Shown: positions 2,593 to 19,002, counted from the stretch's first letter. The stretch: DNA of 64,000 nt from Euglena gracilis (GCA_039621445.1 CP154954.1:33887737-33951736), one strand, 5' to 3'. A program made the numbers and translations. Notes: generated from the letters alone by a model not told the origin.

Positions 2593-3406
2593 GTCCAGTC
2601 CCTCCTCACGTTGTTCCTCTGGTCGGTATTGATGAAGAATTTGGGTGATTCTGATCCGTTCCAGGGTGAGGTTCTTTTTTGGTGGGGGGGGGCGATTTCA
2701 CAACTTTTGGCGCTGCCAGTGGCAACGTGAGTTTCATGTCAGTGTGCACCATTTTTTGTGACTGCCGAATGTCCACTGTTCTGCCAATGTCGACCCACTT
2801 TTCCTGAATGTTTGCCAGTTTTCTGGCGACCTTCTCGTGAAATAAAATGCCTCCTGCTTGCTGTCTCATGCGCCTTCTCCAAAAAAATTCTTCCCTGAGG
2901 GACCGAAACTCTGGTGTTTCCCAAACTGGGACCCTTTCCAGGGGGGTGTTGGGTGGGGAGGCTGGTAAATCAGTTGCCTGGGGGGGGTCTTGCCATTGAA
3001 AGGGGCTGGGTTCCTCCTGCAGGATCACTGTGCCCAGTTTGGCCCACTGTGTGCCATCAAACATGGTGGGTTTTGTTGGAATTTTAAAAATGCGAAATGG
3101 TGGGCCTGGCCCCCCCCCCTCTTGCAGGGGGGGCTGATATTGGGGGGCTGGTGCTGAGATTTTTTGGGGTTGCATTTGGCTGGGGTTGATGATCCTCCTC
3201 TTTTGGGTGGGGGGGGGGGTGTTTTGCTGACTCCTTTTGATTTGGAGTTGCCTTGGGATGAAATTCTTGATCCACTTGTTTTACTGGGTGAAGGTATTGT
3301 GTTGAGTTGTCCCCTCTTTGGGGGGGACTTTGTGAAACAAAAGGGAAAGCTGCAGGCAGAAAACCATATTGGAAGGCTGATGGTGATGCCAGTACCACAT
3401 CTGGGA

Positions 3407-4195
3407 TTAAGGGTGCTGGCAGGCCAGGGTTGTGTAATGGTGTTGGGAGGGGGGGACTTGTGTACTCTGGCCTGTGCTGAGAAAGGCTCTGAGGCTTCTG
3501 AAGAGTTCAGCCTCTTTCCTTCTCTGCTCTTCTTCTCTGGTCCAATTCTTCCTCTGGTCATCTTCTCTGCTCCAGTTTGATTGCAGTGGTTGCTGAGATT
3601 GCAGGGGTTCACCCCAAAGGTTGCTCTGTGATGGAATGTACATTTGTATGATTGATGTGACAGATGGACATACTTGACTTCTACCCACTGGTGGGCATTG
3701 GAATGGGCTGTTCATTGGAATGCTCACTGATGGGCCTGACTGTGGAATGCCCACTGATGGGCTTGCTGTACAGGGGGGCCCCAGACTCACTTGCTGATGG
3801 AGCTGGGGCTGTGGAGAACTCTGTTGAGATATATGATAACTGGGTCGACCTCTCTGCCATGGGGGCTTGTAATCTCTTCCAAACCTTCTCTGTAGGTACT
3901 CTTCATGCTCTTCCCTCTCTTGCCATGTCCTCTTCCTTCTCTGTGAGCTGCTGTCTTGACTTTCTCTGTCACTATGTACAGGGCGGTCAGCAGTGAGTCG
4001 TTGGGCCACAGCAGTGGTTAGCACCGGCACCAACAGCGGCAACAACATCTTGGCCAGCAGCTCCAACTGTCCAGTGTCCACTGCAACAGTAGGTGTACTT
4101 GAAGGGTTGGTTGTGGTAGCAGCTTGGTTGACAAGGGGTGTATTGTCTTGAGTCTTGGGGTCTTCTGGAGGGCCATCCGGCCCCTTTGCAGCAAT
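3407..4195 (-). CDS. Copy A N-terminal gag/ORF1-like region (start codon apparently ATT; frameshifted downstream)
   Basis: Begins about 15 nt downstream of the SL. Shares PEDP and EEYLQRRFGRDYKP / EEFLKKKHQSRYIP with the N-terminus of copy C; Q/P-rich. Confidence 0.5.
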   Translation of the reverse strand: MAAKGPDGPPEDPKTQDNTPLVNQAATTTNPSSTPTVAVDTGQLELLAKMLLPLLVPVLTTAVAQRLTADRPVHSDRESQDSSSQRRKRTWQEREEHEEYLQRRFGRDYKPPWQRGRPSYHISQQSSPQPQLHQQVSLGPPCTASPSVGIPQSGPSVSIPMNSPFQCPPVGRSQVCPSVTSIIQMYIPSQSNLWGEPLQSQQPLQSNWSREDDQRKNWTREEEQRRKEAELFRSLRAFLSTGQSTQVPPSQHHYTTLACQHP

Positions 4196-4209
4196 GGTGA
4201 TTATGCAGA

Positions 4210-4242
4210 CGAAAAAAAATAGACACTCAGAATAGACACTCA
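4210..4242 (-). other. Retro-copied Euglena-type spliced-leader exon (23 nt) plus a partial tandem copy
   Basis: Minus strand reads TGAGTGTCTA-TTCTGAGTGTCTATTTTTTTTCG, matching the recalled E. gracilis SL ACTTTCTGAGTGTCTATTTTTTTTCG. Not followed by a GT donor. Confidence 0.85.
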
Positions 4243-4258
4243 AAATGCAACCTGCCGA

Positions 4259-4313
4259 ACGGTGGTGGGGCGAACCGAATCCACCGACCACTGGCACAGC
4301 CTACTGGATTTGA
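4259..4313 (-). repeat. Conserved ~55-nt retroelement 3'-terminal motif (other copies 10455-10509, 10749-10803, 10891-10945, 11751-11805; inverted at 18443-18494)
   Basis: + strand acggtggtggggcgaaccga(a/g)tccaccgacca(c/g)tggcacagcctactggatttga; six near-identical copies read directly. Confidence 0.9.
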
Positions 4314-4784
4314 AGAGTTCAGGGGAGTAAGGCTATGTACAGAGGCAACAGTCTGTGCACGCTGGTGAAGGGAGGGAAGGTAAAAGGGGCGAGCAAAGAG
4401 AACAGTATAAGGCGCGAGGTGAGGCCGCTGTTGATCAGCTTCCGGAGTTCTTCGTCCACGTGAGTCAGAGTGGTTGGGCAGGCAATGGGGAGGTGGCAGG
4501 GCTCGGTGCCGTTTAAGGTCTGGGTGTTGATGACGGGTGGGCCGGTGATTCCGGCTTCAGCTGTCTTTCACGCCCTGCGGCTCCTCGGGGGCGTCGTTGC
4601 AGCTCCGACGTGCTGCATTGGTTCTTGGTTGTTGCAGGGGGCATTCCTTATATATCATGGCATGGTCCCGATTCGCTGCCCCCTTGGCTGTGCGTGGCGG
4701 GCCGTTTCCGGGCCTCCGCTAGTTCAGGAAGCACCGCCGGAGGCGGAGGGGTTGCTTCGGGATAGTGGAGCCCGAAGGGGTAGC

Positions 4785-7700
4785 TCATGTGCTGTATGGG
4801 TGGTGAGTGTCCATGCCACCTCCTTCGTTGAGGTCGTCAGGGCATTGGCCCCACACGAGCTGTTTCGCCAGTTCTCTGGCAAGGGCCATGCTGAGGCCAT
4901 GCCAGCAGTTTGCCTCCGCTGCTCGCCTCTCCCATGCGTCATGTTGTCCCGCAAGCAAGTGAACACAGTTTCCAACAAAGGCAAGCGCTGCCTCCCCCAT
5001 TCCTCCGTAGCAATCGAGGACAAAGGGGATGAACGTCCACCCTCTGCGCTTACAACCGTCTCCATACTTTTTGATTTTGTCTTCCTCCTGGCTCTCATGC
5101 CATTTCCCAAGGTCTTCCAATCCTGGCCGTACGCGGGAAGGTGCAAGGGGGTGGCGAACGGTCACATCGATTGCCGCCGGACCGTTTGCATCATATCGCA
5201 TCACAAATACGTCGCCCGGGCGGGAACCATCAGGGGCACTCTCCTCTCTTCTGGCCGGGAAACCTGCCTTTTGGGCCAGCCCAAGGATGTAGGACTGCAC
5301 CGCCCCGTGTCGCCGAACAATGTTGTTCCGGTGGCAACAAACGAGGTGTGATGGCCTCTTGCGTCCAAGGGGTTGTGGCACCGAGGGCACCCGGGACAGG
5401 CATCTGAAGGCGAAACAACCGGAGCACCCAGGGACCATTGCATCAGGGCCTGGAATTCCCTTGTTGGTATGAGCGTCCTTGTGGCGGCTGACGGCGTAAC
5501 GGAGGCCCAAGCCATAGCATGTGGCTTCATCTGACATGCCATTTTCAGTTTATCGCTACCCGTGAGTGAGTTGTACAGAGCTTGCTGTCGGGCCTTTGCA
5601 CACTGTTGTCCCCAGAATTTCTGTGCCGTCATTTCTTGAGGCAGCATCTCCGGACTTTTTGGGTCCTCAACAAAGGCCTTTGCAATCGGTGGGAGCTCAC
5701 ATAGACCCTTGATGGCCTCCACCTGGGCGGTAAATTCCGAAGGTAGGGGGTTCATCCCACAGATGGGTGGCAAGTCGAGGACGCGGTCGCCGCGAACAAG
5801 AAAGTCAAGTGTGGCGGCCCACCTGGCGATCGGGCGCTCCGTGGTAGGGTCCCGGATGCCCAACCCACCCAACCGGACAGGCAAGGTGGCCTGGCGCCAC
5901 TGGTCCTCTTCCAGCGGCCGCCCGACAATGATGCTGGCGGTATTCCGCAGGGTTTTGCTCAGCAGCGTGCACTGCATGGTTGCAAGGCCAATTGGAGTAG
6001 TCCTCAACAGGTCGTTAACCTTGCACGCGTCCAGACACAGCCTTAGAATGGTGAACTGGATGTGCGCAGAAGGCACCTTCTGCAAGGCTGAACACGCCTT
6101 CATAGCTTCTTCGCACCGCCCAAACCACACACGTTCGGCAAATGTCCCGTCCTCCGGATGGCAAATTGGAACCCCGAGGGACTTGATTCCGGAACCAGGA
6201 ATGTATGGAGTTACGGGGATGCGTTGCAATACACTTGTCCCCTCCAGGAAGAGAAAACGGTCGGGTTGGAAGGCTGGCCCCCAAAGGGTGCATTTGTTGA
6301 TATTCAGGTCAACACCAATGGGTGGTCCCTTTTCAAGGACCAAATGTACAACCTCCTCCAGCTGGCGTGTAGTCCCCATGATGTGGGCATCGTCCAGGTA
6401 CCAGGCCTGCCGTCCGCAAACGCCATGGATTTCCTCCACCAGACTCTGAATTGCCATGGCAAAGGCAGCCGGTCCACAAGGATCGCCTTGCTGAACCCCC
6501 GACTGGCTTCGGAGGGATGTGTCGCTCAAGAAGAGGCTCGAGTGTTCTGCATAACAGGTCTCCAGCCACGTCACCATTTCTGGACATCGTTCTCGTGCTG
6601 CTTCGAGAAGGTTATCCCTCCGGATCCGGTTGAATGCGTTCCTGAAGTCCAATTGCAAGACTCCCCAGTCACGAGAGCCTCCATGATGGAGGCTGGTCAC
6701 GAGGTGTTGGAGGCCCATGCCGATCAGGCCACAGGCGTCAGGACAACCCACCCCAAACTGCCCGGGCATCCCATCTTGGGTAAACTTTCGCACGGCAGGT
6801 TGGCGCATCAGCACCTTGCCCACCAGTCGGCGCAAGCATTCTCCGGAAGCAATGGGCCGAGTCCCTTCTTGTGCGGGATCCTGCCCATTGGGTGTGAGGT
6901 TCCCAGCGTCATCCACTGTCGTGGCCGGTTTGACCTTTCGCAGCGCCGTGAGGCGTGCCGATGTGAGGATTTCAGCCACACCGGCGGGCCATCCCGTGTT
7001 GATGCAGCAGAAGACGAAGGTCGTGAGGCCCTCAAGCAGTGTCTCGGCCTGTCCCCCAGCTTCCCTGCTAAGCATGTCCTTAATGTGGTCCGGCTTTAGG
7101 CCCGATGGCCCTGCTGCCGATTCTTTTCCGAAACTGAACACTGCTTTGCGGACCATGGAAAGCCTGTCCCTCCTCTCGTTCTCGTCTCCAGGTGGCGGAA
7201 AAACAGAACCCGTTTATCCGTGGGGCCCCGGCCAGGTGGTTCCTCAGCCGGGTGAAGATCGTTCAACCGTTGGCGCACAACGGGGTGTTTGTCATCTTGC
7301 ACGCCGTCCGAAGTCAGGACCTGGCATGCCTTGCCAACGGCACCCTTGCTCACCAAACGTTCAAGGCGGCGTACGAATGCTTCTTCTTGCACTTCTTGCT
7401 CACGTCGGGCTTGGCCCCTGGTGCGAACAGGTTGACCCATTTGGGGTAAGCGGGCAGAGTCCTTCCAACTGTCTGCCACCGTTCGTTTTAGATAAGCTTC
7501 CGCTCTGCCGCGGATGACCCTTCCCAACCGGGCCCAATGGCCGCGTCCACCCTTTCCCAAAGGTGCCAACACAGCCTTGGGGAAAGCCCACAGGCCATGT
7601 AATGTTTCCCAGGTGGGCCTCTCGTTGAACGCCCGGAGAAGGCAGGAGTACACGTCACAGACCGCGGGAAGGGCTCCCTTTGGTATGGTGGAAACAGTGC

Positions 7701-8108
7701 CCCTTGGATCCGAGGATATTTCCATCCACGACGGGGAGAGATCCGGGCACGGGGATTGAAGGGCAGTGCCAGTTTTCATGCCGGGTAGATATTGAACCCC
7801 CATTTCAACGTCGTCCACCCCATCCAACGCACTGGGTCCTCTTGTGGGCCCTTGGCTGTTTGTTGCGGGGAGGGTGGCCTCCAGCGGTGGCCGGCTGATG
7901 AGCCGTTGCAGCAGGTCTTGAAGCTCCCTGGCATCTTGTGAGGAAGGGGATACTTGCGGCGGGGGCTGCAACGGAGGCATGGTTGTCGCCATGAGGAAGC
8001 CAATTGTACGCTCTGCGTTTTGTTCAAAGTCAAACAGCATTGGCACCAAGGTGTTGTTCGCTTCAGGGAAGGTTGGTCCGGGCCTGGGTTTGATTCGACA
8101 TCCCCTGA
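4785..8108 (-). pseudogene. Copy B 2A-RT-CCHC-RLE coding region, broken into four ORF pieces by three frameshifts
   Basis: SLLTSGDVESNPGP; SAAGPSGLKPDH; RPIASGECLRRLVGK; LDFRNAFN; GVQQGDPCGP; WYLDD (6389-6400); LPVRLGGLG; CPRC...H...C; RPGD...IDVTV...KIKKY; FIPFVLDCYGG. Frameshifts near 8070, 7200 and 5340. Confidence 0.88.
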
Positions 8109-8691
8109 TGTCAGCAGGCTGTCCCCTCTGCCGGTCCGAGGGTGAGCGGAGGCATGGAGCTTGCGGGGAAGGCCGTTCCGCTTCCCAAAAGGTCCAAGGA
8201 TTTGACAAATGCCCGTTCTGCCGGCTCCACCACGTCCATCCGAGAGGATAATTGAACTCAGCGACCTCAAAAACCCTGTGCCTGGCCGCTTTGCGTGGCT
8301 TGGAGAATCCGCCAATGCCCATTCTCCGCAGGGGTCGAGGAGCTTGAGGCTTCGCTCTCTACCAGGACGGTCTTGACGAATGCCGGCTCTGGCGGCTCCA
8401 CCACGTCGGTGTGAGCGGATATTCGGACTCGGCGACCTCAAAAACCCCCCTGAGGGGACTCTGAGTGGGCTGTTCCGGGTGATTTTTGCGAAGAAATTGT
8501 AATGGCTGGTGCCCGGCGGAAATGGTTCCCGTACTCCCCGGTACGGGAAAATTCCGCATGGCCGTTTCCGGCCTCTCGCCGCATTTCGGCGGGACGAGGA
8601 CCGCTTTTTCGGGTCCGCCACCCTCGAAAACCCCCCTTGTGGGCATCTGAGCGGGCTCCGCCGGGTCGTCATTATGAAGCAACTGTGATGG

Positions 8692-9526
8692 TGTATACGT
8701 TGGTCGTCACCACCCGCCGTTGGACGGCCACGGGGCAGCTCATACTGCTTGCCGTGGCACGCCCTCAGGCGGGGAACTACACCCAAGGTCCGGCCAACCA
8801 GTGTCTCGTCCTTGGGCGCAGTTGCACGCGCCGGTCGATCCCCGCGGTATGCCCTCTGCCCGTACGGGATCGACCAGGACTCACACGGCGGGACCTGGGT
8901 CTCGAACCCACGACCTCCCGCGTGTGAGCCCAGCACCTTACCGAATAAGCTACTCGAGCGATACTCGGCTTGGTACTACGCGCCGGCTACCAACCTCCGT
9001 AGGATCTCCCGTCTGCCGCACACACTCCCCTCCCAAGAGCCTTACTACACTAGCCCACTGCGTCACTATGGCCGTGGCCCCTGCAGCTCGGGTTATGCCT
9101 CACACGGCCCTAGTTGGCTGAGTGCCTCTCACGAGTACTGCGTCACCAGGCTGCCGACCCCTGCAGCTCGGGTTTGCTATTGCCGGCAGTTTACGTGTTG
9201 TCGACTTCCACGGGCTCTGCCGCCTTGGAGCGTCCCCCTTAGCATCGGCTTGAGACTTTGGAACGGTGTAGGAGTTTCAGTCGCCCTAGACTCGGCACGT
9301 CCGCCTCCGCCTTCCGGGCGCCGTGGGGTCAGGCTCTGACTTCCCGGTTCGTGTGGCATTAGACGGGTTCCTCTGCTACCATGTATACGTTGGTCGTCAC
9401 CACCCGCCGTTGGACGGCCACGGGGCAGCTCATACTGCTTGCCGTGGCACGCCCTCAGGCGGGGAACTACACCCAAGGTCCGGCCAACCAGTGTCTCGTC
9501 CTTGGGCGCAGTTGCACGCGCCGGTC
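8692..9526. mobile_element. Small TRIM-like insertion with ~148-bp identical direct terminal repeats and a probable 5-bp target-site duplication (TSD)
   Basis: 8692-8839 is identical to 9382-9529. GATGG at 8687-8691 and 9527-9531. Removing the insert restores ctgtgatggccg..., as in the sister repeat near 9886. Confidence 0.7.
8890..8959 (-). pseudogene. tRNA-derived sequence (Val-CAC-like pseudo-tRNA or SINE head)
   Basis: GCTCGAGTAGCTTATTCGGTAAGGTGCTGGGCTCACACGCGGGAGGTCGTGGGTTCGAGACCCA: A-box-like TAGCTTATTCGG, CTCACAC anticodon loop, B-box GGTTCGAGACC. Acceptor and anticodon stems pair poorly. Confidence 0.55.
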
Positions 9527-10454
9527 GATGGCCGCTGCCGGAGGGCAGTGGTTCCCGTGTGCCACCAGGACGCTCTTGACGAATGCGGGCTCTGGCGGCT
9601 CCACCACGTCGATTTGAGCAGATATTCGGACTCGGCGACCTCAAAAACCCCCCTGAGGGGCCTCTCAGTGGGGTCTGCCGGGTCATTTTGGCGAAGAACT
9701 TGTAATGGCTGGCGCCGTGCGGCTGTGGTTCATGTGCTCCACGGGACGAGAAAATTCGGCATGGCCGTTTCTGGCCTCCCGCCGCATTTCGGCGGGACGA
9801 GGACCGCTTTTTCGGGTCCGCCGCCCTCGAAAACCCCCCTTGTGGACATCTGAGCGGGCTCCACCGGGTCTTCTGAATGAAGCAACTGTGATGGCCGATA
9901 CCGGAGGGCAGTAGTTCCCGTGTACAACGGACTCCAACAAAGTACTCAACAAGGGTCGAAACCTCCAAAGAGCATTTTGAGTGCAACAGCAATTTTTGCA
10001 GTCTTTTCGCAAGTGGATATGGCGGACTTCTGATCATAATGGCGGGCCCTTCGCCCAACACCCTTCCGACCGGGGGGGAATGACATGGCACTAATCCGGG
10101 AATCGTCGTGGGAGTCTTTGGGGCAAAAAGTCCACATGTTATGTTTTGTTCGCTTCTCATGCCTTCGGTGATGATGATGATGTCGATGGCTGGTCCGGGG
10201 CTGACCTCCCGGGCTGCTGCTCCAGGGCTGATCTCCTGGGCTCGTTGGGGGTTGGGGGGCTCACCCCTTTGGTTGGCATGCTGGGGGTTGCAAGGCTTGT
10301 TCTCTTGCCCCCGGTGCCATCGAACGCTGCGGGGCTGTGTCTCCCGCTGCTCTGGAGCTGTGGGGCTTGGCATCCCACAGGAATCAAGCTGGTTTGTCAA
10401 GTAGAGAACTGGTCACGATCAACAGTTGCAAAGCACGGTCCGAGATGGATGTAT

Positions 10455-10724
10455 ACGGTGGTGGGGCGAACCGAGTCCACCGACCAGTGGCACAGCCTAC
10501 TGGATTTGAGTGTTCGGGGGAGAGGGAAGCTATGTACAGATGGGGAAACCCCCATGGATAGTCAGAGGTTAATCAGGAGACAGTTGCAAAGGAGTGGAAG
10601 TAGTCGATGACTTCAGAAAGCAATATCTTGAAACTTCAGATACCCAAGGTAAATAATAATGCTTGACCCCGACCCCGGGGCTTTCAAGACAAGTTATGCA
10701 GAAGACGAAAAAAATAGACACTCA
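10455..10724 (-). mobile_element. Short non-autonomous derivative: SL + ~125 nt + 3' end of copy-D type
   Basis: SL remnant at 10706-10724 (TGAGTGTCTATTTTTTTCG). 10455-10580 is nearly identical to 10891-11016. Confidence 0.7.
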
Positions 10725-10748
10725 AAATCCAGTGCAAGCAACAACAAA

Positions 10749-10890
10749 ACGGTGGTGGGGCGAACCGAATCCACCGACCAGTGGCACAGCCTACTGGATT
10801 TGAAGAGTTCAGGGGAGTAAGGCTATGTACAGAGGCAACGGTGTGTGTTCTAGATAGCCTAGTAGCGTCCCCTGTCGTTGAATTAAATAT
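10749..10890 (-). mobile_element. Severely 5'-truncated 3' end of copy-B type
   Basis: 10749-10839 matches 4259-4349 (gaagagttcaggggagtaaggctatgtacagaggcaac). Confidence 0.7.
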
Positions 10891-11739
10891 ACGGTGGTGG
10901 GGCGAACCGAGTCCACCGACCAGTGGCACAGCCTACTGGATTTGAGTGTTCGGGAGAGGGAAGCTATGTACAGATGGGGAAACCCCCATGGATAGTCAGA
11001 GGTTAATCAGGAGACACCGGGGCTTTAGTAGCCCGTGGGAAATGGGGTGGATGGGAGACCATGTCGATGATCGAAGAGAGAGTCGAGGATCAGGTGGCGT
11101 CGTTGGGGTGCGCGCGGGGTGCAGTCTTTGGCAGCGGGGCGGGGAGGAGCGGCCATGGTGCATGCTCGGGTGCGGCCTTTGCTGCCGCAGCCCTGATGCT
11201 CTTGACGAGCTGTCGTGCATCGTGACCCATCTGGTGATTGATCGACGCGGCTGAGTGGTTTTAGCGTAGGAGGTGCTTTGGGCGCAGCATTTGCACAATC
11301 TGCCGGAAGAGGGCAAGCGCCAGAAGCTGGTAGCTTTCAGCCTGCCGCGTAGAACGGACATCTCCATGGTCCCACGAGGTTGTGCGTTTGATTATTCTGG
11401 TCAGCAGCTTCGCGCTTTCTGGTCCAAGGCCGCCCCACGTGCCCATTGCCAAGGTGGCGAAAGACCATCCTCCGTTTCGGCAGGGAGTGTCATACTTGGT
11501 GTGCTTGGCAGCCTCCTTCCTTTTCAGGAAGGTCCTCCAGCGCTCCCGCGTTGCCAGCCTTTCGGCGGCCTGCCAGCCATGAGCGACTGTGATGTCGACT
11601 GCCGTGGGCTTACCGTCCTGCCAGGTAGCCAAAAGCAAGTCAGCCGGCCTGAGCGAGCTGTCGGGTTGGTTAGGCACCAGACCTCGCGTTGCACGCTTTG
11701 ACCGTTCGTTGACAAGATGTTGAAGAGGGCGTCTTGAAC
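10891..11739 (-). mobile_element. CRE copy D, 3' part (RLE domain + 3' UTR)
   Basis: VQDALFNILS...VQREV, then after a frameshift LRPADLLLATWQDGKPTAVDITV...KEAAKHTKY...GTWGGLG, stop at 11261; close paralog of the C-terminus of copy C. Confidence 0.85.
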
Positions 11740-12067
11740 CATAGTGGAATACGGTGGTGGGGCGAACCGAATCCACCGACCAGTGGCGCAGCCTACTGGG
11801 TTTGAAGGTCCGGAGGAGGTTAAAAGTATATACAGGTGGTGCAGGGCAGGGCAGAAGGAAAACGGGCAAGGCCCATCTTCAATATAAGGCGCAGAGGGAC
11901 GGCTGGAGTGGTTGACGGCTGGGGTGGCTGACGGTAGGGGTGAGGCGGCCTGCTTGGCGCGGGCGGGAGGGCGGGCGGATGGTTGTGGTGTTTTGGTGTG
12001 CGTGTGTGCGTGTGTGGGTGTGGGTGTGTGTGCGTGTGTGGGTGTGGGTGTGTGGTTGTGTTGTGTG

Positions 12068-12098
<31 letters not shown>

Positions 12099-12114
12099 TT
12101 ATTTTCTTCCGTGG

Positions 12115-15100
12115 TTAACGGAGGACGTGCTTGGGTTGTAAGAGGTGGAACACTTCTCGGAGCAAGGCGATGGCCACATTTTGGTAGATTTCCGCTTGCT
12201 TGGTTTCGCGCTCAGCGCCCTGTTGCCAGGACGATGCGCGTTTGGCCACTCTGCTCAGTGTCTTGGCCGTTTCCGGTCCCATGCCACCCCATGTCCCGAG
12301 GGCGAAAGGTGTGAAGCACCACCCTGCTTGCTGACATGGCACGTTGTATTTCTGCTTTTTGGCGTCCTCCCTCCTCTTCAGGAAGGATCTCCAGCGTTCG
12401 CGGGTCGCTGTGTGTTCTGCCGCTTGCCAGCCGTGGCAGACGGTAACGTCCAGCGCCGTCGGCTTCCCCTCGGACCAGCAGTCCAGCAGGAGGTCCGCCG
12501 GGCGTAGGTGACTGTCTCGGGCCGTTGGCAGGGAAACTTCCTTCTGCACCCGGTGACCGCTGTTGGACAAGGTTTGAAACAGAGCGTCCTGAACAGCGTT
12601 GTGCCGGGCTGAGAAGTTGTTCCTGCGGCAGCAAAGCAGGTGGTCGCCTTCCTGGTCCAGAGGCTGGCCGCACCCTGTGCACGGCTGGCTGACGTCCTCC
12701 AGCACCGGCAGCCCTAACCACCACTTCAGTCCCAAGGTGTACTCCTCGCTAGAGAAGGTGGTGTGGGAGTTGTTGGAAGGGGTGGCCGCCATCCACCCGT
12801 GTCCGAACCCCGTGGCTTGTTCAAGGAGGCGGTTCTGGTCGCGGGGCCGGGCCTGGTCCACAAGGCCATCCATCGCCTTTTTGCCCAGCTCGTGGTTCCA
12901 CCACTTTTGCCTCCGGGGTTCTTGGTCCGCGGAGGCGAGTCGTCGTGGGTTGTGGAGGAAGGTGGTGACCGTGGCATGGTTGGCTCCTAGCCTGCCCCGG
13001 AGGTCGTCCAGGACGGGCGCGACCAGGGGTAGCTGCAGGCCGGATGCGTAGTCGGGCACACCCACGCGCCTGGCCCCGTCTGAGTAGAAGTCTGCAAGGC
13101 AGGAGATCCTGGCTGCGGGCTGAGTGCAGGACGGGACGCGGAGGCCGCAGCCCCCGCTGGATAGGGGCAGCGACGCTTGTGTCCGCTGTTGTGGGTTCAG
13201 TGCCGTGCCCAGTATGTCCTCGAAGGCGTTCATGATGACCTCCGAGCAGCCTGTAACCTGATCTTGGCTGCCATACGAGTCGGACGCGCGTAGGAGGTGG
13301 TTCACTTTGCAGCCGTCAAGACAGCTCCGCAGAAGGTGATGTGCCACCTGGGCGTCGGTGAGGGACGTTATGGTAGATGAGGCCTTCTCGATCTTAGCGG
13401 CAGCATCCGCCCACGCTTTCTTGGTGGTGTCGGAGGACGCGGGGTGGTCTACTGGGATACCGAGCACGGTATGCCTTCCCCTGGTGACCAAGGGACCACT
13501 TGCAATCTGTCGCAACTGGGTGCACTCCGCGCTCCCGGGCCCCACAAGACGCACTTCTGCAGGTTGAGGCCAAGGCCAATGCGGTGGGACTCTTGCAGCA
13601 GGAAACGGAGGCAGTGTTCAATCCTGTCGGGGGTTCCGACCAGGAGGCCGTCGTCCAGGTACCAGCTGTTCCATAGCAGCTGGCCGTCCCTGGTTATCTG
13701 GTCCAGCAGCGGCTGCAGCGCCAGGGCGAACCCGATGGGGCCCAGAGGGCAGCCCTGGTGTGTGCCCCTCTGGGAAAGGATGGTGCGGCCCCCGCAGAAG
13801 AGGGGGACGGGCCCGCTGTATGCAAACCTCAGGAAATTGAACAGACTGGGTGTACGGGTCTCGGCCTCTGTAAGGTCGCCCCTCGGTCAACTGTGTTGAA
13901 AGCATTGGAGTAGTCCACCTGGAGGGAAACCCAGGGTGAGGTGTCCCCCAGCTGAAGCACGAGGTGCTGCATGCCCAGGGCAACAGCCTCGGCGGCGTTC
14001 CGTACCCCCACCCCGACCTGGGTGGGGGCGAGCGTTGCAACCTCCGACCGGGCATGTGGTGTCTGGAGCAGCGTTTTCCCTACCAGGCGGCGGATGGTCT
14101 CCCCAACCGCCACTGGCCGCACCCCGTTGTCCTTCTTGCGGAGTGGGGTCAGATTCGCGCAGCACCAGGCCGCGGCGTGGTGCGGTGGTAGCTGGCCGTC
14201 AATCCAGAACTGGGTCAGCCGCGCAAGGGCTGTGATCAGCTTGGCTCCCCGGCCCGGCCTACGAAGGCAGTCTTGGAGGTGGCTGGGCCGCAGGCCCGAC
14301 GGGCCTGCGGCGGAACCCCGTGGGAAACGGCGGATGGCCTCCTTCAGTCTGTCCTCCCATTCCGGGATGTGGTTCTCAGGGAAGGGCTTAACCTGTCGCG
14401 GGAGGCGGTTGGTGTCCACCGGTCTGCCGCTTGGGTGCAACTTCTCCAGGGCAGCCCAGACATCCGGATCATCCGGTTGGTGCGCGCCCTCAGAGAGCAG
14501 TAGCTGGACTGCCTTCGCGGACGCCCCTTCTGCGGTGAGGGTGCGCACCCGTCTCGTTATGGCCTCACTGAGGGCGGTCGGCTGCGTTCTTGAGCGTTTT
14601 TCCGCCCTGGTTTCCACGACGGAGTGTCGAGCCTGTGCGTCCTTTAGTGCCTCTGTCAGAAGGGTGCCGTAGTCCCCCTCGCGGAACAGTTTGGTACGCC
14701 GCAGCAGGATGGACTCCAGCTCCGCTGCCGGCGGCGGTTTGGTAGTCGACACCGGTCGGAGGACGAGTTTCGGGAAGGATAGGACGCTGAATAGAGCAGC
14801 GTCCGAGGGTGCGTGCGTGTATGCGTTGATGGCATCTGCCAAAGTGTCAAAGACAGGTTGCTGGCAGGCCGAGGGCAGGTGAATAAGGGTGGAGATTCTT
14901 TGTTGGAGGACGTGGGTGATGTCGCATGGGGGAGTGCCCACGACAAGGTTGTGTGTGGGCCGTCCCCGGAGGTTGGACTCCTGCCCCGCGCTGTCGATAA
15001 CTACCGCGGCGTCAAGTTCCGGGTGGGCCAGGTCCAGAAAGAGGTGGTCGTGGTTCCGGGCATTCGCAGCAGCCGGTGCGCCATGAGGTGGCCCGGAGGC

Positions 15101-18100
15101 CGGGCGCTTGGCTGGCCCAGGGTTCTCCTCCACGTCTCCACAGGTGAGGAGGCTACCCCGTCCGCGGGTTGCCCCCCGTATGCAAGGACTTCCCCGCGGC
15201 GGACAACGATGGCCGTTTTTTGGCAGTGAGTCGGCTACCGCTGCCGGATCCATGGGGGCCCGTGGCTCGTGGAGGAGGGAGTGGGGGGTGGGGGTCAGCC
15301 GAAAAGCCGGGCGTAAGAGCGGTGGGCTAGGGGCGGCAAACTGAAGAGGGAGCAGCGTGGGGCAGTCCCAAGGCCATTGCCACAGTCCGCAGCGAGGGCA
15401 CCAGCAGGGGGTCTGACCGCGGATGTCCCACAAGGCGTTCCGGTGGAATAGGAATGTCCGGCCTGCATAGTCCCCTAGGTGGAAGACTTCGCCGCCATGA
15501 GTGGAGCGGCGTTCTATGATAAGGCGTTGTTGGCCAAGGGAGAGGAGCGGCGCAAGGGGGTAAGGGGAGTGCGCGCGGCGCGAGAGCTGCCGTCCGTGGT
15601 CAGCGCCCCGGTGGGGACCCGGTGGGGGCCGGGCGCCGCATGGGCTGCCGCTGCCGGTGTGGCATATCCGTAGGGCTGTGGTCGACCACGTGGGGGCCGG
15701 CAGCAGCGCTGTCCCCCGGGCCCGGTAGATGGGGCATCGCGGTAAGGTCACGGAATGCAAGGAGAGGCGCCGCAGGCCGGCCAGCGCGGTGGACCACTCC
15801 GGTGCGAGGAGGATGATGTTGCCCCCATATCGAAGGACGTGTTCCAAAACACGGGGGAGCAGGGAGAAGGGTGGGTTGCACCACAGCGGGTTTGGCAAGT
15901 TCCAATTCTGGAGGAAAGCATCCTCCCTTGATGACCAGAAGGCGTCCAGTTGGGTGTTATTTTGGTCGGCGAAAGCGTCGATGGTGGGCGGGTCATGGGG
16001 GGACAGAGCCCGCACCACCGCCTGGAACCACTCGGTGTCCAGCATGAAGTCTTCGCGTGGTGCGAGGGGGGGGAGAACGGAGGAAGCCCGGCCGGAGGTC
16101 GTGGGGCCGGGGTTGCTCTCCACATCTCCCGCAGTGAGGATGTCTGCGCCCCTGCCGCTCCGAGCCCGCGGGGGAACCCCCAGGGGGCGGCAGCCGGCGG
16201 CCTGCCGGCGAAGTGTGGAGGTGAGGACCCGCCCATGCGGGGCTCCCTGTGAGTCACTGAGGGAAGCAGCTACGTGGGGTGGGGGTGAGGCCCCGGGGGG
16301 TGCCGGAGTCGCGCTGCTGGGCCCAAGAGCCGGCGCTCCCCGTCTGGGACGCGTGGAGTCATCGTCGTCGGCATCGTCATCCTCCGGGTCGCTATCGACG
16401 TCAGAGAGAGACGGTGGTTGGCAGATCTGCATGTGGGCGACTATGGGCGCTGGGTACGGGGTCGCAGTCGACCATCCGCACATTTGGCAGTGTACCAGCC
16501 ACCACTCGCCGTTTGGGAGGGACTCCAAGTGCTGTAGCCTCCAGCGCCACGAGTCTTCTCTTATGGAGGGGAGAGAGAAAATGTTGCCCATGGGCCTACC
16601 CGCCTGGCAGTGATGGGACTGCATGCCTTGGAGGGAGGACAGGTTGACGTGCTGAGAGCACAAGAGGCATCTCGCATATTCGGACCCTGCCGACGCGAGG
16701 TCTTCTGCCGTCCCCGACGACGAGGGGCCGGCGGTTACCGGGGTGAGCAGACGTAGCCACCGCCAGTGTTGGCCAGTCCAGTAGATCTCCTCCCAGACGT
16801 CGTCGGGCGCCAGGGGGGGGGATGGGCTCGCCGGTCCCCCCGGGCGAGGCCCCGGGTTCTCCTCGATATCGCCGCAGCAGAGGATATCCCTGTGGCAGAG
16901 CTGCCTCGAGAGGCCGGGGCGACTGTGACCGTCGGCGTGATGCCACCCCATTGTATGCCCGTGGTGCCGGCCCCCCCGAGGGGCGGTAGCCGGCCGCCCC
17001 CCCCCCCTCTTGGGGCTGCACGCAGGGGGGATACAGGAGCAGCTGGACGTCGTCGTCCGCTAGGTCAGACCAGGTGCGACCGGGGGGGTGGGGGGGCAGG
17101 GGGGAAGCGGTGATATGAATTCCCTCCAGCCAGTGGTCCACGAGGACTTTTTTGTATTTTTTCCTGGACCCGGTCCATTCCCCCCAGATGGAGGCGTCCG
17201 TCGAAGACAGCACAGACCAATCGTCTGCTGCTGAAATCGAGTTTGTCGGCAGGTTGGCCGGGGCACTGGAACTGGCTGCTAAGGTGTGCTCCTTTTTTTG
17301 TGCAGCCCTTTTTTGGTCCACCAGGTCGGTGACCATTTTCTTTTCCTCAGTGGACCTTGTCCTGAGTTTTTCCAAAATCCTCTGGATTTGGGGTGTTGTG
17401 GTGCATTTTTTGGGGGGGGGCCTTGGCCCAGTCCTGGGTGTGACTTCAAAAACTTCTGCCCCCCCCCCCTCTTCCACTCCCCCCCCCCTTCGATTTGGCA
17501 GGGCACAAATGAAGGAGATGGTGGGAGGAAGGGTCCAGAGGGTCCAGCTGCCATTAAGAGCGGGGCATCGGTAGCAATGGACATGTGGCTGCCATTTGAA
17601 TTTAAATTTAAATTTGGAACATTTCCAAGCAGCATCCACATGATTTGTAGCAGCAGCTGTCGCAGCACGTCGGTGGGGAGCTGCAGCCCTTGGTTGGCTG
17701 TTGCACAGGCTGTCATGGTGGGGGTGTTCCCCACAGGGCCCCCCAGGAGGCTGCCCATCTGGGCCCCCATTTGGCTGCCCATTTGCCCCATTTGGGGCTG
17801 CAGCTGTTGCTGCTGTTGCTGCTGTGGCTGCTGTTGTTGCTGGGCAGTCCTTCCAGGCTTCCCCTGGGGATTTAAAGGTGTGTGGTGTGTGTGGTGTGTG
17901 TGTGTGTGTTGTAGCCAGGGGGGAGGTAAGGGCTGCTCAGGCTGGTGTCGGAGGTGGCGGGGGATGTAGCGGCTCTGGTGTTTTTTTTTGAGGAACTCCT
18001 CGTAGGCTTCGTCTTCTTGTCGCCTCCTTTTTCCCGGTCGTCCTTCCTCCACCTTGTCGGCCAGCTCTTCCACTTTGCTTGCTAATACCACCATATTCTG

Positions 18101-18214
18101 AGCCACCAGGCTCACTTGCTCCAGCACCGAATTCAATTTTTTGTTGAGGATGACGTTGTCCAGCGGCACTTCCAGCACGGCTGGCGGGTCTTCTGGGGCC
18201 GCGGCCCCCGACAT
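12115..18214 (-). CDS. Copy C polyprotein (gag-like / 2A / Zn fingers / 2A / methyltransferase / 2A / RT-CCHC-RLE), frameshifted in this assembly
   Basis: ORFs 17279..18214, 16596..17639, 13829..16951 and 12115..13554 overlap or abut. RT motifs SGLRPSHL, RPVAVGETIRRLVGK, VDYSNAFN, GTHQGCPLGP, WYLDDG (13650-13661); CTGC...DHLLCC; RPAD...LDVTV...KKQKY. Confidence 0.8.
15660..16060 (-). CDS. Dam-like/DIRS1-like amino (N6A/N4C) methyltransferase domain within the copy C ORF
   Basis: DFMLDTEWF...IDAFADQNN...FWS..EDAFLQNW...LWCNPPFSLLPRVL...LLAPEW...PAPTW; NPPF at 15866-15877. Confidence 0.8.
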
Positions 18215-18232
18215 GGCGGTTTATGCGGAAAT

Positions 18233-18258
18233 CGAAAAAAAATGGACACTCAGAAAGT
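18233..18258 (-). other. Full 26-nt spliced-leader copy (1 mismatch) at the 5' end of copy C
   Basis: ACTTTCTGAGTGTCCATTTTTTTTCG followed by ATTTCCGCATAAACCGCC-ATG. Confidence 0.9.
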
Positions 18259-18265
18259 TGTGACA

Positions 18266-18494
18266 CTTGAACGGCGTTGTGACGGTTCGCGAAGTTGTTA
18301 CGGATGTAGCAAAGATCGTGGTCTCCATGAACATCCACCGGGGCCTGACAGCCAGCACAGATAGTCGGTGTGACCGCTAGTGGCAAACCCAGCCACCATT
18401 TCAGTCCCAGCCGGTAGTCCGCCGGGTCGATGACGGTGTGTATCAAAATCCAGTAGGCTGTGCCACTGGTCGGTGGATTCGGTTCGCCCCACCA
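18266..18494 (-). mobile_element. CRE copy D, upstream part (zinc knuckle), capped by an inverted 3' motif
   Basis: YRLGLKWWLGLP...CAGC...GDHDLC...NNFANRHNAVQ joins VQDALF at 11739; inverted motif at 18443-18494. Confidence 0.8.
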
Positions 18495-19002
18495 AACCCG
18501 CGCCCAAGTGAAATTGGGCACCCCGTTTCCCCCTCAGGAGTGTTTTAAACACTTCTTTCAACCAGGCTGTAACGGCGCGCTGCACGCTTGTGCATGGCTG
18601 ACCACGCTGGACAAAAACCTGAAATTTTGGCATCACAATGGTTTTTTGGCATATCACTGAATTTGTCAGAATTTTTTTTGTTGGCCAGGTGCACGAATGA
18701 TAGGAGGATCCCACCGAGCCAAAGTCCTTGGGGTGAGAACATTGTGCGGTGAATGTTCGCCGATCCAATCAACCGCATCAACCCCCTTTATTGAATTTGA
18801 GCCCCCCCCCTCCAAATTCATTTCTCTTGGTTGGGCTGAAAATGCATGCAGACACATTGGACCTCAAAAACTGTCAAAAAAGTCCCATTTTTAAAAAAAA
18901 ATTGAAACTGTGCTGGGTGGAGGCCGAGGACACATCCATCATGCAAATCATTGGATAAGTGAATAGGGATATGGATACGGTTAGGGTGAGGGTTAGGGGG
19001 TT

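What the first reader, a model, noticed from the sequence alone, without database searches (positions are those of the whole stretch)
4259..11805. Near-invariant 55-nt double-hairpin 3' terminus shared by divergent elements, with no poly(A) tail
Seen: the 3' UTRs of B, C and D differ except for the terminal TCAAATCCAGTAGGCTGTGCCACTGGTCGGTGGATTCGGTTCGCCCCACCACCGT. This can fold as CCAGU-A-GGC(UGU)GCC-ACUGG plus GGUGG-AUUC-GG(UUCG)CC-CCACC. The A/G variants gaatcc/gagtcc and cacag/cgcag fall in the unpaired bulge and loop. Inference: an RT-recognition or 3'-processing RNA element allowing cross-mobilisation, possibly captured from a host ncRNA.
Basis: partly seen in the sequence, partly recalled or inferred. 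Interest (0 to 1): 0.72.

Follow-up and report, generated by a model that had tools for sequence, protein, structure and literature searches.

The report
Shared 3′ tail of LINE retrotransposons
A nearly identical 55-base sequence sits at the 3′ end of several quite different jumping genes (LINE-type retrotransposons) nested in one another; it travels with the elements and is not their landing site, and is most likely the handle their copying enzyme grips, a known kind of signal.

Summary
The 55-nt block occurs 5 times on the minus strand with 0-2 mismatches (0 expected by chance), and a sixth, partial, inverted copy lies at 18443-18494. It closes the 3′ UTRs of three lineages of non-LTR retrotransposons (RT + CCHC + restriction-like endonuclease, 2A peptides). 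Their proteins are only 27-56% identical, yet the block is 52-55/55 identical.

It is carried by the elements and is not a host target. Two insertions have target-site duplications (7 and 12 bp), and their empty sites lack the block, both in the window and in public-run contigs.

It is not the literal terminus: 11 and 21 unconserved bases separate it from the duplications. There is no poly(A).

Two hairpins are predicted (-20.1 kcal/mol, z -1.75), but 0 of 16 pairs covary and one natural variant breaks a pair. Structure is therefore unproven.

Rfam, tRNA and collection searches found no host RNA origin.

Best reading: a "stringent" LINE 3′ tail recognised for target-primed reverse transcription. 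This function is inferred, not shown.

It is a new member of a known kind. The near-invariance across lineages and the heterogeneous post-motif tails are the unusual features.

The parts
4259..4313 (-). 55-nt block, 3' end of element B (1 mismatch, C->G, breaks a stem-1 pair)
10455..10509 (-). 55-nt block of a 5'-truncated C-type fragment inserted in B's 5' region
10749..10803 (-). 55-nt block (reference copy, 0 mismatches) of a ~100-nt B-type 3' fragment lying just upstream of B's 5' end
10891..10945 (-). 55-nt block, 3' end of element C
11751..11805 (-). 55-nt block, 3' end of element D (2 mismatches, both in unpaired positions)
18443..18494 (+). Sixth copy. Inverted relative to the others, has one extra A, lacks the last 4 bases. 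It abuts the 5'-truncated start of the interrupted element C/X.
11740..18265 (-). Element D: 5' block, broken ORFs with three 2A-like NPGP sites, Dam-like domain, RT, CCHC + restriction-like endonuclease, 364-nt 3' UTR, block, 11-nt tail. It is an insertion into element C/X.
18266..18272 (-). Target-site duplication GTTCAAG, upstream copy, for D
11733..11739 (-). Target-site duplication GTTCAAG, downstream copy, for D
   Evidence: In one search, X1 contigs run on from 11739 into uninterrupted C-family coding sequence.
11740..11750 (-). 11-nt unconserved tail between D's block and the duplication
   Evidence: In one search another D-type copy in X15 has a different flank from 11752 on.
10891..11739 (-). 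Element C, 3' part: endonuclease C-terminus, 370-nt 3' UTR, block. Its 5' part is 18273-18442.
18273..18442 (-). Element C/X, 5' part: CCHC-region coding fragment, 58% identical to D's protein. It is split from 10891-11739 by the D insertion.
10434..10579 (-). 5'-truncated C-type insertion: 70 nt of UTR, the block, and a 21-nt tail (10434-10454)
   Evidence: In one search the joint 10421->10580 skips it in X1, X6 and X7.
10580..10591 (-). Target-site duplication CTTTGCAACTGT, upstream copy
10422..10433 (-). Target-site duplication CTTTGCAACTGT, downstream copy
4259..10724 (-). Element B: 5' block at 10694-10724, RT (PF00078), frameshifted CCHC + endonuclease, 526-nt 3' UTR, block. The exact 5' edge lies a few to ~20 nt further upstream and is uncertain.
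4334..4341 (-). Invariant TGTA[C/T]ATA 20-22 nt upstream of the block. Also at 10531-10538, 10824-10831, 10965-10972 and 11827-11834. These are 5 of the window's 6 occurrences on the two strands.
4201..4229 (-). Conserved 5'-terminal block of the next element (A). The same block opens B (10694-10724) and D (18221-18252).

Best explanation
The 55-nt block is the conserved core of the 3' tail of a group of eukaryotic non-LTR (LINE) retrotransposons that carry a C-terminal restriction-like endonuclease. It is part of the element's RNA and is copied into every new insertion, including copies truncated to about 100 nt.

Shown: it is carried by the elements, it sits at the 3' end, it is not the target, it is far more repeated than any one element body, and it is nearly invariant across lineages.

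Inferred: the element's reverse transcriptase, perhaps with a host factor, binds this block, possibly folded as two hairpins, and starts target-primed reverse transcription there. This is how 'stringent' LINEs and R2 use their 3' tails. Because three lineages carry the same block, each enzyme could in principle copy the others' RNAs and any short RNA ending in the block.

The 8-21 unconserved bases that follow each block are made anew at each event. They appear both before a target-site duplication and before the 5' end of the next element in head-to-tail junctions. The likely sources are untemplated extension of the primer or capture of filler before the template is engaged. The head-to-tail junctions are best read as template jumps from the 5' end of one RNA to the 3' block of another.
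For: Copies and specificity:
- 5 copies with 0-2 mismatches against 0 in shuffles. 6 model hits at E<=5e-20, next hit E=0.16.

The host elements are restriction-like-endonuclease LINEs:
- RVT_1 at E=5.9e-14.
- CCHC, then RPAD...D.T...E..K, nearly invariant in 34 aligned sequences.
- The profile hits the endonuclease region of two solved R2 proteins at E=3e-5 and 4.8e-5.

The lineages are divergent but the block is not:
- Protein identity is D-C 56%, D-B 27-28% in the linker and endonuclease, and B-D 29-36% in RT.
- The block is 52-55/55 identical in all 10 pairs. The 32 nt upstream are 15-20/32 identical between lineages.

The block is carried by the elements and is not the target:
- D is flanked by GTTCAAG and splits one reading frame (…RHNAVQ | VQDALF…).
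- The C-type fragment is flanked by CTTTGCAACTGT.
- In public-run contigs a joint skips 10422-10579 with 12 shared letters in 3 of 4 runs. 7 X1 contigs continue from 11739 into uninterrupted C-family coding sequence.

The conserved unit ends at the block:
- Flanks just past 10749 are diverse: 37 X6 contigs with agreement 0.38, and 3 X7 contigs with agreement 0.57.

Abundance:
- Summed word depth over the block bins is about 10-300 times that over element bodies in X1, X6 and X7. In X15 (RNA by guess, 31 records laid) it varies between copies.

Analogy:
- R2Bm needs its 3'-terminal stem-loop for robust TPRT, and its RT makes longer cDNAs that the authors read as likely template jumps (passages of PMC11194090).
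- Stringent LINE ORF2 proteins bind their tail's stem-loop (abstract of PMC4176376).
Against: - No direct evidence of RNA-protein binding or of where reverse transcription starts.
- Structure is unproven. 0 of 16 predicted pairs covary. The fold's z-score is only -1.75, and 15 of 200 shuffles fold as well. The 4259 copy breaks a pair, which lowers the energy from -20.1 to -16.5 kcal/mol.
- Invariance extends to loops and bulges, which is more than a stem-loop signal needs.
- In zebrafish each stringent LINE recognises only its own tail (abstract). One tail shared by proteins that are 27-36% identical is therefore not what that model predicts.
- The block is 8-21 nt from the junction and is not the terminus.
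- No DNA of relatives from other species could be fetched. Conservation is shown only in this window and in runs that hold nearly the same sequence.
- Only 40 of 123 variant rows were shown, so variants inside the block cannot be excluded.
Confidence: 0.6

Rival explanations
1. The block is shared because 3' modules are exchanged between lineages, by template switching or recombination during reverse transcription. Under this reading, near-identity reflects recent spread of one successful tail and not long purifying selection on every base. This does not exclude an RT-recognition function.
For: - Identity jumps from 15-20/32 upstream to 52-55/55 in the block.
- Loops and bulges are as invariant as stems.
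- Head-to-tail junctions in the window (B-fragment->B at ~10748, B->A at ~4258) show that RNAs of different copies are joined.
- R2 RT makes longer cDNA products that the authors read as likely template jumps (passages).
- D's 3' UTR starts with AATAAA, A21 and (CA)n right after the stop codon. This would fit a tail added behind an older end.
Against: - The upstream TGTA[C/T]ATA and other islands are also shared at fixed spacing. The homologous region is therefore longer than the block and has diverged, which suggests common descent with unequal constraint.
- The samples are too few and too short for any tree test.
Confidence: 0.25
2. The block serves RNA 3'-end formation, stability, export or host-protein binding, and not RT recognition. 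It might work together with the upstream UGUA[C/U]AUA, which matches the Pumilio-type consensus UGUANAUA as I recall it.
For: - Every base is invariant across lineages whose own proteins have diverged. This would fit a conserved host partner.
- TGTA[C/T]ATA is present 20-22 nt upstream in 5 of 5 copies. Only one other match exists on the two strands of the 64 kb, and the one variable base falls on the consensus N.
Against: - No known processing RNA or ribozyme family matches.
- The bases after the block differ from the first position on between copies. So there is no sign of a fixed cleavage product or of inherited read-through.
- No RNA data were available. The Pumilio match is recalled and could be chance.
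Confidence: 0.15
3. The block is a host sequence: the preferred target site, or a fragment of a host non-coding RNA gene that flanks the elements or was captured by them.
For: - Restriction-like-endonuclease LINEs are mostly site-specific (passage of PMC4640811).
- Three of five copies are followed within 8-50 nt by another element.
- One copy (18443-18494) is not preceded by a 3' UTR.
Against: - Both empty sites lack the block, and the two targets are unrelated to each other and to the block.
- Each block continues upstream into a lineage-specific UTR and ORF.
- Rfam gave 0 hits at gathering score over the window and none on the block at E<=5 over 4000-19000. ARAGORN gave 0.
- The lone copy abuts a 5'-truncated element in inverted orientation.
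Confidence: 0.04

Closest known systems
Conserved 3' tails of 'stringent' LINEs and their partner SINEs (eel UnaL2/UnaSINE1, zebrafish ZfL2-1/ZfL2-2)
   Same: A short conserved stem-loop tail at the 3' end of the LINE RNA. It is recognised by the element's own protein, is required for retrotransposition, and can be shared with other elements. No poly(A) is needed. Sources: abstract of PMC4176376 and search-listing abstract of PMC1636434.
   Different: - Those are APE-type L2-clade LINEs; these carry a restriction-like endonuclease.
- Each zebrafish protein accepts only its own tail (abstract), whereas here three lineages keep one tail.
- As I recall, those tails end in short tandem repeats. 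Here 8-21 unconserved bases follow.
- Binding is untested here.
R2 retrotransposon 3' UTR RNA (Bombyx mori R2 and avian R2)
   Same: - An RT plus C-terminal CCHC and restriction-like endonuclease. The profile of this family hits the R2 endonuclease region at E=3e-5.
- No poly(A).
- The protein binds the 3' RNA, the 3'-terminal stem-loop is needed for robust TPRT, and the authors read longer cDNA products as likely template jumps to further RNAs (passages of PMC11194090).
   Different: - R2 inserts at one 28S rDNA site with a precise 3' junction. These elements inserted at two unrelated sites with 7- and 12-bp duplications and variable tails.
- As I recall, R2 3' UTRs keep structure but not sequence between species. 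Here the sequence is frozen.
HERO clade of restriction-like-endonuclease LINEs
   Same: HERO is the only one of the five such clades described as holding many elements that are not site-specific (passage of PMC4640811). The elements here behave that way.
   Different: Clade membership rests on RT phylogeny against reference elements, which I could not obtain. The 2A peptides and the Dam-like domain seen here are not features I can assign to HERO.

Membership tests
Non-LTR retrotransposon with restriction-like endonuclease (RLE LINE) | Reverse transcriptase domain | tested here: met
   PF00078 at E=5.9e-14 in B's ORF. B and D RT regions are 29-36% identical.
Non-LTR retrotransposon with restriction-like endonuclease (RLE LINE) | C-terminal CCHC motif followed by a PD-(D/E)XK nuclease | tested here: met
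   C..C…GDH…C, then RPAD…D.T…E..K, invariant or >=90% conserved in 34 sequences. The profile aligns to residues 985-1130 of a solved R2 protein at E=3e-5.
Non-LTR retrotransposon with restriction-like endonuclease (RLE LINE) | Insertion by TPRT: 5' truncations, target-site duplications, no LTRs | tested here: met
   Copies are truncated to ~100-146 nt but keep the 3' end. Duplications are 7 and 12 bp. Empty sites are seen in run contigs.
Site-specific RLE clades (R2, R4, CRE, NeSL/Utopia) | Insertion at one conserved host sequence that flanks every copy | tested here: not met
   The two duplications and their flanks are unrelated, and both lie inside other elements. Flanks after the block are diverse in run contigs (agreement 0.38).
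HERO clade | Position in the RT phylogeny with reference HERO elements | not testable with these tools
   No reference element sequences are held. All 77 protein relatives are unnamed.
Stringent-type LINE 3' tail | Conserved block at the 3' end of the element, kept in 5'-truncated copies, no poly(A) | tested here: met
   Caveat: 11 and 21 unconserved bases lie between the block and the duplication.
Stringent-type LINE 3' tail | Stem-loop structure maintained in evolution | tested here: inconclusive
   Two hairpins are predicted (-20.1 kcal/mol, z -1.75). 0 of 16 pairs covary, 13 never vary, 3 depart only by unpaired cells. RNAalifold gives the same result.
Stringent-type LINE 3' tail | Bound by the element's own protein and required for retrotransposition | not testable with these tools
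   Needs binding and TPRT or retrotransposition assays.
Stringent-type LINE 3' tail | Shared with non-autonomous partner elements (SINEs) | tested here: inconclusive
   Block bins carry far more summed depth than the lineage-specific UTR bins beside them. The tool warns that summed depth is not a copy number. No SINE was seen in the window.
Known structured RNA families (host ncRNA, tRNA, self-cleaving ribozymes) | Match to a curated covariance model or tRNA detector | tested here: not met
   Rfam at gathering score: 0 in 64 kb. Rfam at E<=5 over 4000-19000: 4 weak hits, none on a block. ARAGORN: 0.

The most novel reading that the evidence does not exclude
This group of restriction-like-endonuclease LINEs starts reverse transcription in an unusual way. 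A sequence-frozen 55-nt RNA module, shared by lineages whose proteins have diverged to ~30% identity, is held by the enzyme or by a conserved host partner. The DNA primer is first extended by 8-21 untemplated or captured bases, and only then is the module copied. The primer can be a nicked target or the end of a cDNA that has just finished another RNA. The same step would explain three observations: the variable tails at target junctions, the head-to-tail arrays, and the inverted block at a 5'-truncated junction, which would come from a second priming event on the opposite strand. It would make all carriers of the module mobilisable by any of the lineages.
Probability: 0.2. Interest if true: 0.6.

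Novelty: new member of a known kind. Interest (0 to 1): 0.4.

Why it matters
If the block is the recognition handle, it defines a compact (55-90 nt), sequence-defined cis element for a little-studied group of LINEs that are not site-specific and carry a restriction-like endonuclease. One tail serving several divergent enzymes would be a natural case of relaxed partner choice among otherwise "stringent" elements. That would bear on how LINE families compete and how SINE-like parasites arise. The heterogeneous tails and the head-to-tail junctions offer a genomic record of how such enzymes engage a template. None of this changes the basic picture of LINE biology. It is a useful annotation and a modest mechanistic lead.

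Tried and rejected
- **Host-target reading.** Rejected on two empty sites.
- **Host ncRNA, tRNA or ribozyme origin.** Rfam at gathering score, Rfam at E<=5 over 4000-19000 and ARAGORN gave nothing on the block.
- **Whole genome of the window.** Not held.
- **Relatives' DNA for covariation.**
  - Block pattern in viral contigs: 0.
  - Protein profile A2 was too diverse for the tool. Profile A3 in metagenome contigs matched 596 pattern stretches, none confirmed. In viral contigs it matched 10, none confirmed.
  - A 24-nt half-block pattern in metagenome contigs gave 4 loci (L001-L004). All sit in one conserved, coding-looking sequence without hairpin 1, so they are chance matches.
  - A protein-database search with the translated D 3' UTR + block, looking for spurious ORFs over the block, scored nothing.
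- **Expression.** No RNA holder was listed among the sequencing runs. X15-X20 are RNA only by guess, so nothing is said about expression.
- **Earlier findings of this scan.** Nothing for this genome or these sequences. A word search returned three LINE-tail cases from other genomes that do not bear on this one.
- **The antisense of the sixth copy as coding sequence.** It is in frame with the CCHC fragment, but the family's conserved residues upstream of that point are absent, so I treat it as non-coding.
- **Alternative helix AAUCC/GGAUU and A-box/B-box-like readings of the block.** Considered by eye. The natural variants do not support the helix, and no detector supports a tRNA-like origin.
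- **Tails as inherited read-through of the parent's flank.** Rejected. The two 98.5%-identical C-type ends share only 3 tail bases, and a D-type copy in X15 differs from the first base.


Full report
**1. The observation**

The 55-nt sequence occurs five times on the minus strand: 4259-4313, 10455-10509, 10749-10803, 10891-10945 and 11751-11805. These copies have 1, 1, 0, 1 and 2 mismatches, and none was found in 100 shuffles.

A self-comparison of the window found a sixth copy on the opposite strand. It reads as motif positions 1-51 with one extra A, at 18443-18494.

A covariance model built from the six copies finds only these six in the 64 kb. All six have E <= 5e-20, and the next hit has E = 0.16.

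No A-run follows any copy.

**2. What carries it**

The window is eukaryotic, and no genome is held for it. From about 4.2 to 18.5 kb the minus strand is a nest of non-LTR retrotransposons.

- B's ORF has a reverse transcriptase domain (PF00078, E=5.9e-14).
- B, C and D end in a CCHC motif followed by RPAD…D.T…E..K. These residues are invariant or >=90% conserved in an alignment with 31 database relatives.
- The profile of that alignment matches the C-terminal endonuclease region of two solved R2 proteins (E=3e-5 and 4.8e-5).
- D holds three 2A-like …NPGP sites and B holds one.
- D also has a Dam-like NPPF segment that scores just under Pfam's cut-off (26.9 against 28.1 bits).
- The 77 protein relatives found are all unnamed metagenome or genome proteins.
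- A language-model look-up lists eukaryotic clusters in which Porifera is the commonest phylum. The phylum is known for only 2 and 5 members of the two wholly eukaryotic clusters, so this is a lead only.

The lineages are far apart. D and C are 56% identical over 154 aa. D and B are 27-28% identical in the linker and endonuclease. B and D are 29-36% identical in RT.

**3. Anatomy, reading the minus strand**

- **Element D (18265 down to 11740)** is an insertion. GTTCAAG stands on both sides (18266-18272 and 11733-11739). The sequence on either side joins into one reading frame of an older element: …NNFANRHNAVQ | VQDALFNIL…, which aligns to D's own …NNFSARHNAVQDALFQTL….
- **That older element (C/X)** therefore consists of 18273-18442 plus 11739-10891.
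- **A C-type 3' fragment (10579 down to 10434)** is flanked by CTTTGCAACTGT (10580-10591 and 10422-10433). It sits in the 5' region of element B.
- **Element B** runs from a conserved 5' block (10694-10724) to its own motif at 4259.
- **Two head-to-tail junctions.** Just upstream of B's 5' end lies a ~100-nt B-type 3' fragment ending in the motif at 10749. Just downstream of B's motif, another element (A) begins with the same 5' block (4201-4229).
- **The 5' block is shared.** D opens with it as well (18221-18252).

**4. Not a target site**

In both insertions with duplications, the reconstructed empty site has no motif.

Independent contigs agree. When contigs of four public runs were laid on 10400-11980, one contig in each of X1, X6 and X7 joined 10421 to 10580, with 12 letters fitting both sides. 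That is the empty site of the C-type fragment.

Seven X1 contigs (agreement 0.91) ran on from 11739 into sequence that, by my reading, is the reverse complement of the …RNNFANRHNA coding stretch. It differs at 3 of 30 letters from window 18273-18302. That is the empty site of D (the comparison was done by eye).

The two targets resemble neither each other nor the motif. So these elements are not strictly site-specific, unlike four of the five restriction-like-endonuclease clades. In the passage I read, HERO is the clade described as holding many non-specific elements (PMC4640811).

**5. Where the conserved unit ends**

The motif is not the literal end of an insertion. 11 nt (D) and 21 nt (C-type fragment) lie between it and the duplication. 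Some 8-24 nt lie between it and the next element's 5' block at the two head-to-tail junctions.

These tails share no sequence.

- The two C-type ends are 98.5% identical over 131 nt, yet their tails agree for only 3 bases.
- In X15 a D-type 3' UTR contig (depth 560) leaves the window sequence at 11752.
- Flanks just beyond 10749 are diverse in X6 (37 contigs, agreement 0.38) and X7 (3 contigs, 0.57).

Upstream, contigs leave the window sequence at about 10520 and at 10815-10847 with low agreement (0.46-0.61). The widely shared unit is therefore about 66-100 nt.

Summed word depth over the motif bins was 34,500-82,200 in X1, against 190-3,200 over the C body. X6 and X7 show ratios of about 10-100. 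The tool warns that such sums are not copy numbers.

Among the 40 variant rows shown (83 were hidden), none lies inside a motif copy. Six lie 7-19 nt upstream of two copies.

**6. Conservation**

Between lineages the 55 nt are 52-55/55 identical. The 32 nt before them are 15-20/32 identical, and the 16-18 nt before those are 3-8 of 16-18 identical.

Inside the weakly conserved part, TGTA[C/T]ATA is invariant. It lies 20-22 nt upstream of all five copies. It occurs only once more on the two strands of the window. B and D also share GCGCCTTATA about 95 nt upstream of the motif start.

The homologous tail is thus longer than the motif, but only the motif is frozen.

**7. Structure**

The minimum-energy fold is two hairpins at -20.1 kcal/mol. 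Its z-score is -1.75, and 15 of 200 shuffles fold as well.

For hairpin 2 the favoured register pairs CGGUGG with CCACCG.

Covariation is absent. Of 16 pairs, 13 never vary, 3 depart only by unpaired cells, and none changes on both sides. RNAalifold on 102-104-nt tails (105 alignment columns) adds no further helix.

There are four kinds of natural variant. One lies 5' of hairpin 1. One, in the 4259 copy, turns a G-C pair into G·G, which gives -16.5 kcal/mol.

The structure is a reasonable prediction, no more.

**8. Origin**

Rfam gives nothing at gathering score over the window and nothing on the motif at E<=5 over 4000-19000. ARAGORN finds no tRNA.

The one copy without a UTR upstream (18443-18494) directly abuts the 5'-truncated start of element C/X in inverted orientation. 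So that old insertion has the motif at both ends, as an inverted repeat.

A second priming event on the opposite DNA strand that also started at the motif would give this arrangement. This resembles "twin priming", a mechanism I recall and did not look up. Two X6 contigs also join motif copies on opposite strands. This explanation is inference.

**9. Mechanism**

The best-supported reading is a 3' tail of the "stringent" kind. The element's protein binds the tail and begins target-primed reverse transcription there.

- For zebrafish L2-type LINEs the abstract I read states that each ORF2 binds the stem-loop of its own tail strictly (PMC4176376).
- For R2Bm, the passages I read show weaker TPRT without the 3'-terminal stem-loop, and longer cDNAs that the authors read as likely template jumps to further RNAs (PMC11194090).

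The head-to-tail junctions here fit such jumps: a truncated B-type end, then a full B, then A.

Two things do not fit the textbook case. One nearly invariant tail serves three divergent lineages. And there are the unconserved 8-21-nt tails. Rival or complementary readings are recent exchange of the tail module between lineages, and a host-factor or RNA-end function.

**10. What could not be done**

No DNA of relatives from other species could be fetched. No RNA run was available. Breadth, covariation and transcript ends therefore remain open.

Papers seen only as search listings or abstract starts: PMC1636434, PMC10499050, PMC3708506 and PMC11481361. My searches turned up no description of this element group or tail. 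Three keyword searches are no proof that none exists.

**11. Verdict**

This is a real, well-delimited, element-borne 3' tail of a poorly described group of restriction-like-endonuclease LINEs. It is a known kind of signal, with an unusual degree of sequence invariance across lineages and an unusual variable tail behind it.

Noticed in passing
18221-18252, 10694-10724, 4201-4229 (minus strand): Elements D, B and A also share a conserved 5'-terminal block: TGAGTGTC[C/T], a T run, CG…GCATAA. In A and D part of it is duplicated. So both termini are conserved across divergent lineages, not only the 3' end.
   Followed up: partly
4334-4341, 10531-10538, 10824-10831, 10965-10972, 11827-11834 (minus strand): TGTA[C/T]ATA lies 20-22 nt upstream of every 3' block. 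These are 5 of the window's 6 matches on the two strands. It fits the Pumilio-type consensus UGUANAUA as I recall it, with the variable base at the N.
   Followed up: partly
13829-17059 (minus strand), and 8079-8138 for B: D's long ORF holds three 2A-like sites (…IEENPGP, …VESNPGP, …VEENPGP) and a Dam-like N6-adenine methyltransferase segment with NPPF (PF05869, 26.9 bits, cut-off 28.1). B keeps one 2A-like site. My searches turned up no description of 2A sites or a methyltransferase-like domain in a restriction-like-endonuclease LINE.
   Followed up: no
18443-18494 (+ strand) against 10891-10945 (minus strand): The old element C/X carries the block at both ends as an inverted repeat. The 5' copy lacks the last 4 bases and joins directly to a 5'-truncated coding sequence. 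Two X6 contigs also join block copies on opposite strands.
   Followed up: partly
11980-12105 (minus strand): D's 3' UTR begins 12 nt after the stop codon with AATAAA, a run of about 21 A, and a long imperfect (CA)n. About 270 nt later comes the block. This might mark an older poly(A)-type end.
   Followed up: no
8361-8839 and 9382-9894 (minus strand), inside B's 5' region: A large internal duplication: 331 nt at 89% identity, adjoining 148 nt at 100% identity. It brackets a ~540-nt segment that contains a tRNA-like T-arm string (GGTTCGAGACC). ARAGORN calls no tRNA there.
   Followed up: no
31945-36503: A satellite-like array of ~110-nt units at 78-96% identity, present in both orientations. 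Other dense short repeats lie at 21.7-21.9 kb, 25.6-31.4 kb and 45-46.7 kb.
   Followed up: no
L001-L004 (metagenome contigs): The 24-nt half-block pattern matched one conserved, coding-looking sequence in four contigs. These are chance matches without hairpin 1.
   Followed up: yes
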